A stretch of 36,232 nucleotides of DNA from Alphaproteobacteria bacterium (GTDB lineage Bacteria > Pseudomonadota > Alphaproteobacteria > Rs-D84). The stretch covers positions 1 through 36,232 of the forward strand of contig JAIDLK010000012.1 of the NCBI GenBank assembly GCA_029051085.1, given 5' to 3'. This document shows, in pieces, positions 13,772 through 23,544 of the stretch. The notes under the pieces are model-generated. The model saw only the letters and a list, made by a program, of their open reading frames with translations. It did not search any database and was not told the origin of the DNA. Position 1 is the stretch's first letter, and the number at the start of each line of letters is the position of its first letter. Both the position numbers and the translations under genes were made by a program.

Positions 13772-13800
13772 ACCACCGATTATTCTGATGGTTTTTATTT
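13772..13800 (+). promoter_or_regulatory. Terminator-like hairpin plus U-tract inside the 5' leader of the 13844 ORF (possible attenuator)
   Basis: ACCACC-gattattct-GATGGT followed by TTTTATTTTTTT. The 14-mer GATGGTTTTTATTT is identical to 23304-23317 in the leader of the 23341 ORF. Confidence 0.5.
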
Positions 13801-13843
13801 TTTTATACTTTCCCAATTTCTGCATGTTTTTATCCTTGTTTTT

Positions 13844-14191
13844 ATGCCTAAGGAAAACGGTCCTTTGTTTGCCGCATTATGCATTGTTGGTGCAACACCG
13901 GCAATGGCGGCATCAAACGGTATGTGCGAACTGATTGTACAAATGCAAAATGTATTTAAGATACTGCGAACGATGGCGTTTGTCGGGGCAGGGTTTGTGT
14001 TGGCAAAATACGCATGGGATGCAATAGTCGGCGGTAAACTGGGCGGTAAAGATAACATTGCAGACGGCTTAAAGGCCGTTGGCGTACCAATGATTGTTGG
14101 ATTTGCACTGCTGTTTTCAATCGGCCTGGTTTTGGGATTTTTGTCAAACGGCGCAAATCTGGGATGCACGGCGATTACACAGGGCTGGTAA
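13844..14191 (+). CDS. Small secreted two-helix membrane protein, TrbC/VirB2 (T4SS pilin)-like architecture
   Basis: Signal peptide (LFAALCIVGATPAMAA), then hydrophobic helix - charged/aromatic loop (AKYAWDAIVGGKLGGKDNIADGLK) - second hydrophobic helix (VPMIVGFALLFSIGLVLGFL). At 115 aa, length and layout resemble VirB2/TrbC pilins. No obvious SD. Not verified by a profile search. Confidence 0.5.
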   Translation: MPKENGPLFAALCIVGATPAMAASNGMCELIVQMQNVFKILRTMAFVGAGFVLAKYAWDAIVGGKLGGKDNIADGLKAVGVPMIVGFALLFSIGLVLGFLSNGANLGCTAITQGW

Positions 14192-14206
14192 ACAAGGGGG
14201 ATGAAT

Positions 14207-14287
14207 ATGAAAATATCAAAAAAGCACGTTGTATTCGCGATAATGGTTATCGCCATACTGGCATGCGGATACATGATTGCGATATAA
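14207..14287 (+). CDS. 26-aa single-TM micro-ORF (MKISKKHVVFAIMVIAILACGYMIAI)
   Basis: Not in the ORF track (too short). GGGGGA SD 6 nt upstream of the ATG, the same SD type as metG and the 23341 ORF. Starts 16 nt after the preceding stop and is followed at once by a terminator. Contains a lipobox-like ILAC. Confidence 0.4.
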   Translation: MKISKKHVVFAIMVIAILACGYMIAI

Positions 14288-14313: not shown

Positions 14314-14592
14314 TTATTTTGAATAATAACAATCGCCTTCGTATACCCCACTGCCCGAGCCATCAGAAAAAGTGGTGCCGGATGGTATATAGCAAGATGT
14401 TATGTCTCCGGTATTGCGATCGACCGTTGTACCATAAACCCCACCGGATGATGGACAGCGAGTGCATGCTGCACTGTTTAAATAATATCCGGGTTTACAT
14501 GCAGTATAAGTTTTTGTGGTCGTCGTACAGGCAGCATATGCATATTGCATATTTATCAATGTTATAAGAACAATAAAAAAAATCTTTTTCAT
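14314..14592 (-). CDS. Secreted Cys-rich, Thr/Ser/Gly-rich small protein (92 aa; paralog of the upstream gene)
   Basis: Sec signal peptide MKKIFFIVLITLINMQYAYA. The mature part has 6 Cys, including CKPGYYLNSAACTRCP. AGGTGA SD. Its ATG overlaps the upstream stop (ATGA). Confidence 0.75.
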   Translation of the reverse strand: MKKIFFIVLITLINMQYAYAACTTTTKTYTACKPGYYLNSAACTRCPSSGGVYGTTVDRNTGDITSCYIPSGTTFSDGSGSGVYEGDCYYSK

Positions 14593-14945
14593 ATTATATC
14601 ACCTATATTACCTGTATCACCCATCAAACACGGAGAACCATCAGAATTCGTACTTTTGTTTGAAGGCGTATAACATGTTTTCTCAGTGGTTTCGCAGGTG
14701 CCGTAGGCCTGGGTGTAATAACCGTAAGAATCACTGCCGCTTGTGCTAGAACGTGTGCACGTAGTGCCTGATACCGTCCAGCCAATCGGACAAGTTTTCT
14801 CTGTCCGGCCTTTACAACAATACGGACTCGCTGACGTTGTCTTTTTTCTACATTCTGATGATGTGTCGCATCCTAGTAATGATGCTGAGTTTGCCGATGA
14901 TATTGGAATAACCAATATCAATGCTGCGATAAAAATATGTTTCAT
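14589..14945 (-). CDS. Secreted Cys-rich, Thr/Ser/Gly-rich small protein (118 aa from the Met at 14945)
   Basis: AGGAGG SD 7 nt upstream of the ATG at 14945; the track start at 14972 would include the SD. Signal peptide MKHIFIAALILVIPISSANSA. 9 Cys. CPIGWTVSGTTCTRSSTSG aligns with CKPGYYLNSAACTRCPSSG of the downstream paralog. Confidence 0.75.
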   Translation of the reverse strand: MKHIFIAALILVIPISSANSASLLGCDTSSECRKKTTSASPYCCKGRTEKTCPIGWTVSGTTCTRSSTSGSDSYGYYTQAYGTCETTEKTCYTPSNKSTNSDGSPCLMGDTGNIGDII

Positions 14946-14970
14946 TTTAAACCTCCTGTTTGTGCGAAAC

Positions 14971-15183
14971 AAAAAACCACCAAATATTTGGTGGTCAGGA
15001 GGCTGATAACAATTCTGTGAATTGCGTGCTTATTCAATATATTCGCAACCCTCCTGACCCGCGGTTCAGGAGATTTATATTTAACGTCGTAATAAAAATG
15101 GCGCGGCGCGCCAACAAGTATCTATTCCGACGCACAGAAAGAGGTTATCAGGCCTCATCACGACAACCCGTCGCGACATAAAA
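14971..15183 (-). ncRNA. Structured 5' leader, copy A, of a conserved unclassified cis-regulatory RNA element ending in an intrinsic terminator
   Basis: On the minus strand: 5' hairpin; a 4-bp/8-nt-loop hairpin (GAGG-cctgataa-CCTC, 15141-15156); variable hairpin; H1 (15051-15072); a 26-nt core (15028-15053) identical at 25/26 to 23227-23252; a 5-bp hairpin AATTC-aca-GAATT; GTTATCAG complementary to the 8-nt loop; CCTCCTGACC (14993-15002) complementary to the H1 3' arm; terminator CCACCAAATATTTGGTGG plus T6 (14971-14994). The strand call follows the U-tract and the downstream gene. Confidence 0.6.
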
Positions 15184-15221
15184 AGTATATAGTACAGTAA
15201 GAATTTTTGCCAGTGATTTTT

Positions 15222-23107: not shown

Positions 23108-23136
23108 TTGCAAACGCAAAAAGAATTAGATATAAT
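23108..23136 (+). promoter_or_regulatory. Near-consensus sigma70 promoter TTGCAA-N17-TATAAT
   Basis: -35 at 23108-23113, -10 at 23131-23136, with an exact 17-nt spacer. Drives the structured leader and the 23341 ORF. Confidence 0.7.
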
Positions 23137-23313
23137 CAAGGTGCCGGCGGGTATTCTGCGGGCGGGGTGTAAGAGCCCCATAACTGCCTGTTTCCGATGA
23201 AACAGAAAAACTCCAACCAATGGCTGGAGGGTCGCGAATATATTGAATAAGCGCACTATAGCAGTTTATAGCTCTTAACCTCCAGCCATCTGAATTTTAT
23301 TCCGATGGTTTTT
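23137..23313 (+). ncRNA. Structured 5' leader, copy B, of the same conserved unclassified cis-regulatory RNA element
   Basis: 5' hairpin GCCGGC..GCGGGC (23143-23163); a 4-bp/8-nt-loop hairpin GGGG-tgtaagag-CCCC (23164-23179); hairpin CTGTTTC-cgat-GAAACAG; H1 CTCCAACC-aat-GGCTGGAG (23211-23229); 26-nt core 23227-23252; 5-bp hairpin CTATA-gcagtt-TATAG; GCTCTTA (23271-23277) complementary to the 8-nt loop; CCTCCAGCCAT (23279-23289) complementary to 23220-23230; terminator-like CCATC..GATGG plus T5 (23286-23313). Confidence 0.6.
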
Positions 23314-23340: not shown

Positions 23341-23544
23341 ATGTTGACCGGAAGGCACATAGAGGCCGCCAGAATCCATGCCGGCATACCGATATTTATC
23401 ATATGCAATGCAATGAATATAGAAACCGAAGCTGAATATCACTCCATTGTTGATAAAAACAAAAAGCCAAGCGTATACCAGCAGATAATGATATATACAT
23501 TATTTGAAGAACGTCGCAAATCAATGCCTATACTTTGCGTATAG
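23341..23544 (+). CDS. Small XRE-like helix-turn-helix protein (67 aa), tentative
   Basis: GGGGGA SD 6 nt before the ATG. The N-terminus MLTGRHIEAARIHAGI.... resembles the MLTG.QIRAARALLG start of many small alphaproteobacterial XRE/HTH proteins. The 3' end overlaps the convergent queH by 17 nt. Confidence 0.4.
   Translation: MLTGRHIEAARIHAGIPIFIICNAMNIETEAEYHSIVDKNKKPSVYQQIMIYTLFEERRKSMPILCV

What the first reader, a model, noticed from the sequence alone, without database searches (positions are those of the whole stretch)
14971..15183. Candidate undescribed cis-regulatory RNA: two leaders with a 25/26-nt identical core and compensatory changes in every helix (copy A)
Read on the minus strand, this leader and the one at 23137-23313 (copy B) have the same layout:
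- (1) A 5' hairpin: TCGCGAC..GTCGTGA in A, GCCGGC..GCGGGC in B.
- (2) A hairpin with a 4-bp stem and an 8-nt loop: GAGG-cctgataa-CCTC in A, GGGG-tgtaagag-CCCC in B.
- (3) A variable hairpin.
- (4) Helix H1: CTCCTGA..TCAGGAG in A, CTCCA..TGGAG in B.
- (5) An almost invariant single-stranded core, GAGGGT(T/C)GCGAATATATTGAATAAGC.
- (6) A 5-bp hairpin: AATTC/GAATT in A, CTATA/TATAG in B.
- (7) A segment complementary to the 8-nt loop of (2), suggesting a pseudoknot: GTTATCAG in A, GCTCTTA in B.
- (8) An immediately adjacent segment perfectly complementary to the 3' arm of H1: CCTCCTGACC in A, CCTCCAGCCAT in B.
- (9) A terminator hairpin plus U-tract just before the SD.

The sequences of the helices differ between copies while the pairing is preserved. 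That is the signature of a selected RNA structure with mutually exclusive conformations, as in a riboswitch or attenuator. In copy A the 3' arm of H1 (TCAGGAGG) mimics the true SD (CAGGAGG). The CCTCCTG segment could therefore pair with either one, which would allow translational as well as transcriptional control. I could not match the core to SRP, tmRNA, 6S, RNase P or any riboswitch consensus I know.
Basis: seen in the sequence. Interest (0 to 1): 0.85.

Follow-up and report, generated by a model that had tools for sequence, protein, structure and literature searches.

The report
New two-state leader RNA family
The two look-alike leaders belong to a large, apparently undescribed family of structured RNAs in tiny-genome gut Alphaproteobacteria; the family sits in front of surface/secreted-protein and small regulator genes and most likely acts as a switchable transcription terminator.

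Summary
Copy A (14971-15183) is on the minus strand, but copy B (23137-23313) is on the plus strand. No Rfam 15 family matches. An exact 19-mer scan found about 115 true copies in gut Alphaproteobacteria MAGs (Ca. Enterousia / Rs-D84), at least 6 per genome of under 1 Mb. A loop-blind metagenome scan added 49 more.

Each copy is its own transcription unit: sigma-70 promoter, 5' hairpin, structured leader, intrinsic terminator, then an SD and ORF about 28 nt later.

Covariation supports two mutually exclusive folds:
- A "locked" fold: long helices P1 and P1b, plus hairpin H1 (a:b), with the terminator intact.
- A three-way junction: b:a' closing P4 and P5, plus hairpin S1. Its a' strand takes 3-4 nt from the base of the terminator.

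The "invariant single-stranded core" is really the cap of the covarying hairpin P4. Across the family only GAAUA-N4-RAAUAA is conserved, and the middle can be replaced by a hairpin.

Best reading: a conditional terminator (riboswitch- or attenuator-like) whose effector is unknown. The effector probably acts on the P4 module or junction and stabilises the antiterminator. Copies without an ORF, arranged in tandem arrays, keep a stand-alone sRNA or decoy role open.

Rejected or weakened:
- The leader peptide is rejected.
- SD mimicry is weak.

The parts
15184..15213 (-). Copy A promoter-like site: CTGGCA - 18 nt - TATACT. The inferred transcription start is near G15177.
   Evidence: Across the family, a -10 box matching at least 5 of 6 positions lies 27 nt upstream of S1 in 94/106 copies.
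15157..15177 (-). Copy A P0: 5'-terminal hairpin, GUCGCGAC/GUCGUGAU.
   Evidence: MFE fold. The P0 region folds at -5 kcal/mol or better in 93% of family members.
15141..15156 (-). Copy A S1: GAGG-ccugauaa-CCUC, a 4-bp hairpin. Its loop contains the P1 5' strand, UGAUAAC (15150-15144).
   Evidence: S1 covaries: GGGG/CCCN, GAGG/CCUC, UGGG/CCCA, UAGG/CCUA.
15133..15139 (-). Copy A P1b 5' strand, UUCUGUG. It pairs with CACAGAA at 15019-15013.
   Evidence: MFE fold. Family test: 91 distinct 3' strands. The own partner scored at least 6.5 of 7 in 76% of copies, against 1.4% for partners from other copies.
15085..15132 (-). Copy A P2: variable hairpin with a CGUCG...CGACG base. It contains an internal terminator-like GC hairpin plus U-run at 15113-15099.
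   Evidence: The internal hairpin plus T-run occurs in 37/53 type I copies and 0/47 type II copies.
15050..15072 (-). Copy A H1: a (CUCCUGA, 15072-15066) pairs with b (GGUCAGGAGG, 15059-15050). This is the proposed anti-antiterminator hairpin.
   Evidence: The MFE fold pairs b with a in 103/105 family members.
15026..15049 (-). Copy A P4: covarying stem with a conserved 15-nt cap, GAAUAUAUUGAAUAA (15044-15030).
   Evidence: Searches show all 4 stem pairs with compensatory changes. One search gives the family cap consensus GAAUA-N4-RAAUAA, with hairpin insertions tolerated.
15010..15024 (-). Copy A P5: CAAUU-cacag-AAUUG. Its loop and 3' arm overlap the P1b 3' strand (15019-15013).
   Evidence: All 4 pairs show compensatory changes, including CAAU/AUUG, CUAU/AUAG, CUGU/ACAG, CUAC/GUAG and CGUG/CACG.
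15004..15010 (-). Copy A P1 3' strand, GUUAUCA. It pairs with UGAUAAC at 15150-15144.
   Evidence: 7 pairs, 99.1% paired, 5 with compensatory changes; 100/111 copies have a perfect 7/7 match.
14993..15002 (-). Copy A a': CCUCCUGACC, perfectly complementary to b. It is the 3' strand of the proposed antiterminator.
   Evidence: 104 of the 111 family members kept (score of at least 8.5 of 9) have 9/9 Watson-Crick pairs. Rare variants covary.
14969..14996 (-). Copy A intrinsic terminator: GACCACCAAA-uauu-UUUGGUGGUU followed by a U-tract. Its 5' arm overlaps a' (14996-14993).
   Evidence: The overlap is 3-4 nt in most copies. Terminator dG has a median of -9.8 kcal/mol, falling to -2.3 when the a' nucleotides are withheld.
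14589..14958 (-). Copy A regulated gene: SD CAGGAGG (14958-14952), ATG at 14945, 118-aa Cys-rich protein with a signal peptide.
   Evidence: No Pfam or NCBIfam family matches.
23108..23136 (+). Copy B promoter-like site: TTGCAA - 17 nt - TATAAT. The inferred start is near G23143.
23143..23163 (+). Copy B P0: 5'-terminal hairpin.
23164..23179 (+). Copy B S1: GGGG-uguaagag-CCCC. The P1 5' strand UAAGAGC is at 23170-23176.
23182..23187 (+). Copy B P1b 5' strand, AACUGC. It pairs with GCAGUU at 23261-23266.
23188..23205 (+). Copy B P2 hairpin: CUGUUUC-cgau-GAAACAG.
23211..23230 (+). Copy B H1: a (CUCCAACC, 23211-23218) pairs with b (GGCUGGAGG, 23222-23230), with one A.C mismatch.
23231..23254 (+). 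Copy B P4, with cap GAAUAUAUUGAAUAA at 23236-23250.
23256..23271 (+). Copy B P5: CUAUA-gcaguu-UAUAG.
23271..23277 (+). Copy B P1 3' strand, GCUCUUA.
23279..23287 (+). Copy B a': CCUCCAGCC, forming a perfect 9-bp complement to b.
23286..23313 (+). Copy B terminator hairpin (CCAUCuG...CGAUGG) plus U-tract. It overlaps a' by 2 nt.
   Evidence: The simple scan missed it because of a bulge.
23341..23544 (+). Copy B regulated gene: a 67-aa small protein that looks HTH-like. Related type II leaders precede XRE-type HTH proteins of 64-95 aa.
   Evidence: HTH_19/HTH_3 matched for two family members. Clustering gives 19 members, 18 of them type II. The window protein itself had no Pfam hit.

Best explanation
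**What it is.** Each copy is a self-contained transcription unit whose roughly 170-210-nt leader acts as a conditional intrinsic terminator.

**The two folds.**
- *Locked fold (OFF, and the default):*
  - The 5' half pairs with almost every part of the 3' half except P4.
  - The pairings are P1-5' with P1-3', P1b-5' with the P5 loop, a with b (hairpin H1), and GGGG with the CCUC of a'.
  - This leaves the 3' end of a' free to complete the terminator stem.
  - Transcription then stops about 28 nt before the SD of the gene.
- *Open fold (ON):*
  - b pairs with a' over 9-10 bp.
  - This closes a three-way junction that carries P4 and P5.
  - GGGG folds back into the small hairpin S1.
  - Because a' now holds the 3-4 nt at the base of the terminator, the terminator is crippled and RNA polymerase reads into the gene.

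**The proposed trigger.**
- I propose that an effector recognises the conserved P4 module, 5'-GAAUA...RAAUAA-3', which is a pseudo-symmetric, A-rich irregular helix.
- Binding to this module and/or to the junction would stabilise the three-way junction.
- That would make the element an ON switch.
- I think the effector is more likely a protein (possibly a dimer, or the transcription complex itself) than a metabolite.

**The regulon.**
- Mostly lineage-specific secreted, Cys-rich or outer-membrane proteins (type I and some type II leaders).
- Small XRE-type HTH regulators (many type II leaders).

**Shown versus inferred.**
- Shown:
  - the family exists
  - both sets of helices exist
  - a' overlaps the terminator
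  - the promoters and gene contexts are as described
- Inferred:
  - the direction of the switch
  - the existence and nature of the effector
  - that regulation occurs at all
For: **Family and novelty.**
- About 115 true copies were found in gut Alphaproteobacteria MAGs, at least 6 per genome.
- A loop-blind scan added 49 more.
- No Rfam hit.

**Structure: locked fold.**
- P1 is 99.1% paired, with 5 of 7 pairs showing compensatory changes.
- 100/111 copies have a perfect P1, drawn from 41 distinct strands.
- P1b: own partner scored at least 6.5 of 7 in 76% of copies, against 1.4% for partners from other copies.

**Structure: open fold.**
- P4 and P5: every pair shows compensatory changes, with 0/500 shuffles reaching the observed values.
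- b:a' is 9/9 Watson-Crick in 104/111 copies.
- b:a' covaries in rare variants:
  - GGCAGGAGG/CCTCCTGCC
  - GTCGGGAGG/CCTCCCGAC
  - TGTGGGATG/CATCCCACA
  - GTGGGGGAG/CTCCTCCAC
  - GGTTGGAGT/ACTCCAACC
- Strand a changes in step with b in the common types.

**Two states.**
- The MFE is the locked fold in 103/105 copies.
- Forcing b:a' costs a median of +10 kcal/mol, and the forced fold then uses S1 and P5, the two small hairpins that also covary.

**Expression platform.**
- a' overlaps the terminator 5' arm by 3-4 nt.
- Terminator dG falls from -9.8 to -2.3 kcal/mol without those nucleotides.
- A T-run is found in 109/111 copies.
- An ORF with an SD starts a median of 28 nt after the T-run in 96/111 copies.
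- A -10 box lies at a fixed 27 nt before S1 in 94/106 copies.

**Regulon.**
- Downstream genes fall into many unrelated families: 43/48 type I are signal-peptide proteins and 23/41 type II are short non-secreted (HTH) proteins.
- This is the pattern of a shared cis-regulator rather than a co-duplicated cassette.

**Effector.**
- The conserved nucleotides sit in a helical module that tolerates a hairpin inserted at its centre.
- The junction composition varies: P2 is present or absent.
- Both points fit a macromolecular partner better than a small-molecule pocket.
Against: - No effector has been identified.
- No expression or termination data exist for these uncultured organisms.
- Nearest-neighbour energies favour the locked fold by about 10 kcal/mol, and co-transcriptional order also favours it. 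The ON state therefore needs a strong stabiliser or a kinetic route that I cannot demonstrate.
- The overlap between a' and the terminator is only 2-4 nt.
- b:a' could coexist with P1 and P1b as a pseudoknot. In that case the role of P5 would be unclear.
- Tandem leaders with no ORF between them (L061, L007, L117) are not what a purely cis-acting element predicts.
- Units that lack the 5' lock and a separate terminator (L117) are also not what such an element predicts.
- The preference for a protein over a metabolite effector rests on indirect arguments.
Confidence: 0.62

Rival explanations
1. The RNA's primary role is as a stand-alone small RNA. In this reading it is a multi-copy 'sibling' sRNA family, or a decoy/sponge that titrates a factor binding the GAAUA/RAAUAA module. 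The downstream ORFs would then be expressed only incidentally by read-through.
For: - Every copy has its own promoter, a 5' hairpin and a strong terminator, so the default product is an RNA of about 190 nt.
- L117 holds at least 8 units in 1.7 kb with no ORFs between them. Some are bare [b-P4-P5-a'] modules followed directly by a U-rich run.
- L061 has 3 full leaders in series and L007 has 2, with no intervening ORF.
- The most conserved part is one exposed module, as in seed or protein-binding sRNAs.
Against: - 96/111 copies are followed within about 28 nt by an SD and ORF on the same strand, with no room for another promoter.
- The elaborate, covarying alternative pairing that involves the terminator (a, b, a') has no obvious purpose in a purely trans-acting RNA.
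- No target or partner was found. Complements of the loop in the window are at chance level.
- This rival is not exclusive of the best explanation.
Confidence: 0.2
2. It is a classical metabolite- or second-messenger-sensing riboswitch. In this reading the three-way junction (b:a' as P1, with P4 and P5) is the aptamer, and ligand binding stabilises b:a' to prevent termination, as in ON-type purine riboswitches.
For: - A three-way junction whose closing stem shares nucleotides with a terminator is the standard ON-riboswitch layout.
- There are many copies per genome in front of diverse surface-protein genes. From established knowledge, this resembles c-di-GMP-I (GEMM) riboswitches.
- Covariation is strong and no Rfam match exists.
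Against: - The junction strands are poorly conserved in sequence and length. P2 is optional and the strand between P5 and a' is copy-specific.
- The conserved nucleotides lie in a helical module away from the junction, and that module accepts a hairpin insertion.
- The regulated genes give no metabolic clue.
- ORF-less arrays are unusual for riboswitches.
Confidence: 0.2
3. Control is mainly translational. In this reading the anti-SD-like strands a and a' (CCUCC) pair with the SD of the downstream gene, and b (GGAGG) acts as a competing SD mimic.
For: - In copy A the true SD, CAGGAGG, equals the core of b.
- CAGGAG at the SD is enriched in type I (13/48) against type II (1/41), Fisher p = 0.0012. 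TGGRG is enriched in type II, 13/41 against 6/48.
Against: - About 70% of copies lack a type-matched SD.
- The enrichment can be explained by shared ancestry of paralogues.
- A strong terminator lies between the leader and the SD, so transcription control comes first.
- Any CCUCC can pair with any SD, so the test has little specificity.
Confidence: 0.1
4. It is a DNA-level feature. The conserved AT-rich 19-mer would be an operator for the XRE-type regulators encoded downstream of type II copies, or the element would be a mobile or repetitive DNA element (MITE/REP, phage-borne).
For: - AATATATT is palindromic.
- Small HTH genes follow many type II copies.
- Three full copies lie on IMG/VR 'viral' contigs.
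Against: - The flanking stem P4 covaries, including its closing pairs, which points to an RNA hairpin.
- G.U pairs occur in the helices of the transcribed strand only.
- Hairpin insertions of 14-22 nt between the two conserved halves would destroy a DNA site's spacing, but they preserve the RNA module.
- The element's orientation is always tied to a promoter, terminator and ORF.
- Its neighbours in the window are housekeeping genes, with no transposase.
- The L119 'viral' copy is an ordinary type II leader before a secreted protein.
Confidence: 0.03

Closest known systems
ON-type transcriptional riboswitches built on a three-way junction (for example the pbuE/ydhL adenine riboswitch; from established knowledge)
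   Same: - A three-way junction whose closing stem (here b:a') shares its 3' strand with the 5' arm of an intrinsic terminator, so a stabilised junction means read-through.
- The element sits directly upstream of the SD and ORF.
- Covariation is strong.
   Different: - No sequence or Rfam relationship.
- No known ligand.
- Conserved nucleotides lie in a helical cap or module, not in the junction.
- An extra 5' 'lock' of about 100 nt is complementary to nearly all of the junction domain (P1, P1b, a).
- Many copies per genome sit in front of unrelated surface-protein genes.
Protein-dependent antitermination leaders (BglG/SacY-LicT RAT elements; ANTAR two-hairpin substrates; from established knowledge)
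   Same: - An antiterminator structure that overlaps the terminator by a few nucleotides and would be stabilised by a bound factor.
- Several leaders per genome share one recognition element.
   Different: - There is no RAT-like or ANTAR-like motif. ANTAR needs two hexaloop hairpins, whereas here the loops are 15 nt and 5-14 nt.
- No partner protein has been identified.
- The architecture is much larger, with three competing long-range helices.
Cis-acting antitermination RNAs that act on RNA polymerase (HK022 put, Bacillus EAR; from established knowledge)
   Same: - A structured RNA just downstream of a promoter and upstream of terminators.
- A universally conserved partner such as RNA polymerase would explain why one module is conserved across all paralogues.
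   Different: - No sequence or structural similarity was tested or is known.
- put and EAR are not known to have a competing 'locked' fold.
- This comparison is a lead only.
UAA/GAN internal-loop motif (Lee, Gutell & Russell 2006, as summarised in PMC2615604)
   Same: - The base of the P4 cap reads 5'-C-GAA-U / 5'-A-UAA-G.
- This fits the published signature (ccUAAg/uGAagg) of a 3x3 loop flanked by Watson-Crick pairs.
- That motif makes A-minor long-range contacts.
   Different: - Only the sequence signature matches, and there is no 3D evidence.
- The module here is longer and pseudo-symmetric (GAAUA/RAAUAA), so the two halves cannot both be canonical UAA/GAN motifs.
Multi-copy sibling sRNAs and sponge RNAs (Qrr, LhrC, CsrB/RsmZ; from established knowledge)
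   Same: - Several paralogous copies per genome, each with its own promoter and terminator, sharing one conserved exposed element.
- ORF-less tandem arrays exist (L117).
   Different: - Most copies are fused to a downstream ORF.
- They carry terminator-competing alternative pairings.
- No GGA, C-rich or seed-like target complementarity was found.

Membership tests
Any Rfam 15 family (4227 models) | Match to a curated covariance model at its gathering score | tested here: not met
   - Window: only two tRNAs.
- 15 loci holding about 30 copies: only tRNAs.
- At E<=10 the only overlapping hits are far below gathering: DUF3800-VI 16.6 bits against 35, C0719, Phe_leader, YenS.
Riboswitch (generic) | Conserved structured domain in a 5' leader, with covariation | tested here: met
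Riboswitch (generic) | Expression platform whose pairing competes with the sensor domain | tested here: met
   a' is shared between b:a' and the terminator. The alternative folds were computed.
Riboswitch (generic) | Direct, selective binding of a small molecule or ion | not testable with these tools
   This needs in-line probing, ITC or similar assays. The gene context gives no ligand clue.
T-box leader | Stem I specifier loop, conserved T-box sequence and antiterminator bulge, and association with aminoacyl-tRNA synthetase or amino-acid genes | tested here: not met
   There is no RF00230 hit even at E<=10. The downstream genes encode secreted proteins and HTH regulators.
Ribosome-mediated (leader-peptide) attenuator | Conserved short leader ORF whose translation determines which hairpin forms | tested here: not met
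   The only open frame through the core starts at the loop UUG. Its length is variable (median 11 codons, 5th-95th percentile 5 to about 80) and its stop position is not conserved.
ANTAR / PRD (RAT) antiterminator targets | ANTAR: two tandem hairpins with hexanucleotide loops. RAT: an imperfect hairpin of about 29 nt with conserved sequence. | tested here: not met
   The P4 cap is 15 nt or longer and the P5 loop is 5-14 nt with variable sequence. The consensus features were recalled from knowledge, and no dedicated model was run.
Trans-acting sibling sRNA family | Own promoter and Rho-independent terminator, with multiple paralogues | tested here: met
   There are at least 6 copies per genome.
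Trans-acting sibling sRNA family | Conserved accessible seed complementary to target mRNAs | tested here: inconclusive
   A conserved cap exists, but complements in the window are at chance level: 6 found against 2.2 expected, and 2 of the 6 are the elements themselves. Whole genomes were not available.
UAA/GAN internal-loop motif | 5'-UAA-3' opposite 5'-GAN-3', flanked by Watson-Crick pairs and forming a cross-strand A stack | tested here: inconclusive
   The sequence signature is present at the base of the P4 cap (C-GAA-U / A-UAA-G) and fits the signature quoted in PMC2615604. The 3D fold is not testable here.

The most novel reading that the evidence does not exclude
The [b:a'/P4/P5] three-way junction is an autonomous module that binds a conserved cellular factor through its pseudo-symmetric GAAUA/RAAUAA helix. 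That factor could be a dimeric regulator or RNA polymerase itself.

In leaders, binding would unlock the 5' 'lock' and suppress the adjacent terminator. ORF-less arrays of the same module (L117, L061) would act as decoys that titrate the factor.

Together these would form a previously unknown, Csr-like global RNA circuit governing the surface and secreted proteome, and a set of XRE regulators, in reduced-genome gut Alphaproteobacteria (Rs-D84 / Ca. Enterousia).
Probability: 0.2. Interest if true: 0.85.

Novelty: new variant of a known kind. Interest (0 to 1): 0.72.

Why it matters
Rs-D84 / Ca. Enterousia are uncultured gut Alphaproteobacteria with genomes under 1 Mb (PMC12306168). Such genomes have few regulators.

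**Scale.** There are at least 6 copies of this leader per genome, and probably many more, with 2 in this 36-kb window. The leader may therefore be the main device controlling their lineage-specific surface and secreted proteins, which are the molecules that mediate contact with the host or with other microbes.

**For RNA biology.**
- It is a large orphan class with more than 160 members.
- Comparative evidence for two mutually exclusive folds is unusually clear.
- It has an unusual 'self-antisense' 5' lock.
- It has a compact conserved module whose partner is unknown.

Identifying that partner would reveal either a new riboswitch ligand or a new RNA-protein antitermination system.

**For annotation.** A covariance model (R1) now exists that finds members specifically.

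Tried and rejected
**Database and literature checks**
1. Rfam. Searches at gathering score and at E<=10 on both copies, and on 15 related loci, gave nothing relevant. The weak GcvB-like hit on the opposite strand (22.6 bits against a gathering score of 42) is judged spurious.
2. Literature.
   - The core sequence appears in no paper.
   - No paper on Ca. Enterousia describes RNA motifs.
   - No listed paper links Rs-D84/RF32 to an RNA motif.
   - The human-microbiome structured-RNA catalogue (PMC8040213) does not mention these taxa.
   - The core is absent from the first 200 of that catalogue's 408 supplementary files.

**Alternative readings of the element**
3. Leader-peptide attenuation. The frame opened by the loop UUG is not conserved. 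In copy A it happens to end in an ATGA overlap with the gene start. That also occurs in 3 other copies, but it is not a family feature.
4. SD mimicry as a general feature. There is only a weak type-specific enrichment.
5. A trans target. Complements of the cap in the window are at chance level.
6. Phage or mobile element. Four IMG/VR contigs carry the 19-mer. Three of these are ordinary leaders, and one examined (L119) precedes a secreted-protein gene. There are no transposases near the window copies.
7. Chance matches. Three of the 118 genome hits (L049 Paenibacillus, L062 Chitinophagaceae, L067 Rhodospirillaceae) lack the architecture, about the number expected for a 19-mer in 596 Gb.

**Functional and structural questions left open**
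8. Function of the regulated proteins. Pfam and NCBIfam gave only HTH_19/HTH_3, OMP_b-brl and Listeria-Bacteroides repeat hits. Most proteins have no family.
9. A single nested consensus structure. RNAalifold on MAFFT alignments returned the b:a' fold for type I and the P1/H1 fold for type II. This shows that no single structure describes the family.
10. My first automated parses used windows and offsets that were too narrow and mis-placed P1 in about 25% of copies. This was corrected.
Full report
**1. Observation**

The 26-nt core GAGGGT(T/C)GCGAATATATTGAATAAGC occurs at 15028-15053 (minus strand) and 23227-23252 (plus strand). No other match with up to 3 mismatches exists, and none appeared in 100 shuffles.

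Both leaders fold much better than dinucleotide shuffles (z = -6.5 and -4.2).

Both have a sigma-70-like promoter just upstream:
- Copy B: TTGCAA-17-TATAAT
- Copy A: CTGGCA-18-TATACT

Both also have a terminator hairpin with a U-tract, followed by an SD and ATG. Copy A precedes a 118-aa Cys-rich protein with a signal peptide. Copy B precedes a 67-aa protein that looks HTH-like. The neighbouring genes are housekeeping: pheT, ileS, nth, mnmG, fabG, fabD, queH, metG.

**2. It is a large family**

*Databases and literature.*
- Rfam 15 gives only two tRNAs in the window and nothing meaningful at E<=10.
- Fifteen related loci give only tRNAs.

- All but three are MAGs of gut or rumen Alphaproteobacteria, labelled Ca. 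Enterousia, 'Rickettsiales' or 'uncultured proteobacterium'.
- The three exceptions lack the architecture and match the number expected by chance.
- Several assemblies contribute at least 6 copies each (CANQCM01, SUUO01, JAWPOC01, CAMWON01, CANSHD01).
- These organisms belong to order Rs-D84 and have genomes under 1 Mb (PMC12306168).
- L028 (CANSHD010000001.1) carries near-identical versions of both window copies about 8 kb apart.

*Covariance model.* I built a model of the 3' domain (R1).
- It finds only the two copies in the window.
- It finds about 25 further, more divergent copies in the fetched loci.

*Loop-blind scan.* A scan of metagenomes with GGTTGGAGGN{44,70}CCTCCAACC, filtered with R1, gave 49 more members.

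**3. Anatomy, 5' to 3'**

| Element | Description | Evidence |
|---|---|---|
| Promoter | -10 box matching at least 5/6 positions in 94/106 copies, a constant 27 nt before S1 | |
| P0 | Hairpin at the 5' end | |
| S1 | GGGG:CCCN, 4 bp with an 8-nt loop | |
| P1b 5' strand | 7 nt, directly after S1 | |
| P2 | Variable. Long in type I; short or absent in type II | |
| Linker | A-rich | |
| H1 | a pairs with b | |
| P4 | Covarying stem with the conserved cap | |
| P5 | 4-5 bp. Its loop is the P1b 3' strand | |
| P1 3' strand | 7 nt, complementary to the S1 loop | |
| a' | 9-10 nt | |
| Terminator | Followed by SD and ORF | |

In type I, P2 contains an internal GC hairpin plus U-run in 37/53 copies.

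Two main types exist:
- Type I: a = CUCCUGA, b = GGUCAGGAGG, a' = CCUCCUGACC.
- Type II: a = CUCCAAC, b = GGUUGGAGG, a' = CCUCCAACC.

**4. Covariation**

- **P1:**
  - 99.1% of cells are paired, and 5 of 7 pairs show changes on both sides. One pair, for example, reads C-G 22, A-U 15, G-C 9.
  - The whole structure beats all 500 shuffles and all slid controls.
  - In 111 copies, 100 have a perfect 7/7 match drawn from 41 distinct strands.
- **P1b:** there are 91 distinct 3' strands. The own partner scores at least 6.5 of 7 in 76% of copies, against 1.4% for partners from other copies.
- **P4 and P5:** every pair shows compensatory changes. P4 stems in the unbiased set range over GUGGC/GUCAC, GCUGU/ACAGC, GUUGU/ACAAC, UGCC/GGCA and CCGU/ACGG.
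- **b:a':** 9/9 Watson-Crick in 104/111 copies. Rare variants change on both sides (GGCAGGAGG/CCTCCTGCC, GTCGGGAGG/CCTCCCGAC, TGTGGGATG/CATCCCACA, GTGGGGGAG/CTCCTCCAC, GGTTGGAGT/ACTCCAACC).
- **a:b:** a follows b in the common types but is weak or absent in a few rare ones (L015, L066). b:a' is therefore the more conserved pairing.
- **Strand of the structure:** G.U pairs occur in the helices, which places the structure on the transcribed strand.

**5. Two folds**

P5 and P1b cannot coexist, because the P1b 3' strand fills the P5 loop with no spacer before the P5 3' arm. Strand b cannot pair with a and a' at the same time. GGGG pairs either with CCCN (forming S1) or with the CCUC of a'.

Constrained folding shows the following:
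- The locked fold (P1, P1b, H1 and the terminator) is the MFE in 103/105 copies.
- Forcing b:a' costs a median of +10 kcal/mol.
- The forced fold then uses exactly the two small hairpins, S1 and P5, that also covary.

RNAalifold returns one fold for type I and the other for type II. Selection on both sets of pairs is the signature of a switch.

**6. Link to the terminator**

The terminator's 5' arm begins inside a'. The overlap is 3-4 nt in most copies. Median terminator stability falls from -9.8 to -2.3 kcal/mol when the a' nucleotides are withheld.

So b:a' is an antiterminator, a is an anti-antiterminator, and the rest of the 5' half (P1-5', P1b-5', GGGG) is an additional lock on the junction domain. 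An SD and ORF follow the T-run by a median of 28 nt in 96/111 copies, which leaves no room for another promoter.

**7. The 'core'**

In the loop-blind sample the cap is not invariant.
- The consensus is GAAUA-NNNN-(G/A)AAUA(A), with the middle four nucleotides free.
- In at least 7 of 49 members (and in L007:7132-7212), the middle is replaced by a stable hairpin of unrelated sequence.

The conserved element is therefore a pseudo-symmetric module, 5'-GAAUA(A) opposite 5'-RAAUAA, inside an extended P4 helix. Possible pairs are G.A, A.A, A-U, U-A, A.A and A.R. Single changes fit this pairing:
- U6.G10 becomes C-G in L084.
- G1.A15 becomes U-A in L039.
- G1.A15 becomes G-C in L089, L093 and L009.

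Its base fits the sequence signature of the UAA/GAN motif. That is a lead, not a test.

**8. Genes controlled**

Downstream proteins fall into many unrelated families:
- 43/48 type I copies precede signal-peptide proteins.
- 23/41 type II copies precede short non-secreted proteins.
- 15/41 type II copies precede signal-peptide proteins.

Only HTH_19/HTH_3, an OMP beta-barrel and Listeria-Bacteroides repeats are recognisable.

**9. Mechanism proposed**

The default is the locked fold and termination. An effector that recognises the P4 module and/or the junction stabilises b:a', the terminator fails, and the gene is transcribed.

I lean towards a macromolecular effector, for four reasons:
- The junction itself is poorly conserved.
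- P2 is optional.
- The conserved module is helical, twofold-like and tolerant of insertions.
- ORF-less arrays that could act as decoys exist (L117, L061, L007).

A metabolite riboswitch is not excluded. The direction of the switch and the effector are both inferences.

**10. Rejected or weakened ideas**

- Leader-peptide attenuation.
- General SD mimicry.
- A DNA operator or mobile element.
- Membership of any Rfam family.

**11. Verdict**

This is a real, strongly supported and apparently undescribed structured leader RNA family. It works like a terminator/antiterminator riboswitch, but with an unusual self-complementary lock and an unknown effector.

Noticed in passing
L117:80-1700 (minus strand; CANBCI010000003.1 144001-152000): A tandem array of at least 8 R1 hits lies within 1.7 kb, with no ORFs between them. 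Each unit has its own TTGCAA-N17-TAAAAT/TATAAT site. Some units are bare [b-P4-P5-a'] modules, sometimes two back to back, followed directly by AUUUUAAUUAUUU instead of a separate terminator. Only the last unit precedes an ORF (MSGRPFKPSEIDVYIGQ...).
   Followed up: partly
L061:2361-2929 (minus); L007:6906-7212 (minus): Three full leaders in series (L061) and two in series (L007) each have their own promoter and terminator. No ORF lies between them, and a single gene follows.
   Followed up: partly
window 15099-15113 (minus strand), inside P2 of copy A: An internal terminator-like GC hairpin plus U-run (UGGCGCGCCGCGCCA UUUUUAUUA) lies inside P2. The same feature is present in 37/53 type I leaders and 0/47 type II leaders. 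It may be a pause or early-termination site.
   Followed up: partly
L007:7132-7212; L197, L158, L215, L173, L219, L182, L242 (metagenome loci): In these leaders the middle of the conserved P4 cap is replaced by a stable hairpin of variable sequence. The hairpin sits between the GAAUA and AAAUAA halves.
   Followed up: yes
L081:309-379: This is a chimeric copy: b is type I (GTCAGGAGG) but a' is type II (CCTCCAACC). No downstream ORF was detected. It may be a recombinant or a decaying copy.
   Followed up: no
window 13795-14274 and 14314-14592 (minus strand): Two further ORFs (159 aa and 92 aa) lie downstream of the copy A gene on the same strand. Neither has a Pfam or NCBIfam match. They may be co-transcribed with the regulated gene.
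   Followed up: no
L126, L127, L131, L134, L135, L139, L143, L145, L147 and others (metagenome loci): An unrelated, highly repeated long palindromic element (about 70-90 nt, TTAGGTGCGGTTAGGCTGGAGTAGTGTCCGGGCTGCAGCCCGGACACTACTCCAGCCTAACCGCACCTAA) was picked up by the b/a' pattern. It is not a member of this family, as R1 gives no hit.
   Followed up: no
L119, L120, L121 (IMG/VR contigs): Full-length leaders occur on contigs that IMG/VR classifies as viral. The L119 copy precedes a secreted protein of about 316 aa, like the L027 family. This suggests prophage regions or host DNA mis-binned as viral.
   Followed up: partly
window 14943-15036 (minus strand): In copy A the frame starting at the cap UUG runs 31 codons and stops at a TGA overlapping the gene's ATG (an ATGA overlap). 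The same overlap occurs in L028, L020 and L011:475, but the frame is not conserved across the family.
   Followed up: yes
Upstream of the -35 box in type II HTH-associated loci (for example L004, L048, L053, L085, L109): A recurrent CCAGTAAATATTTGCAA / CTGGA(A)TTTTATTTGCAA sequence overlaps the -35 box. It could be an operator for the XRE-type proteins encoded downstream.
   Followed up: no
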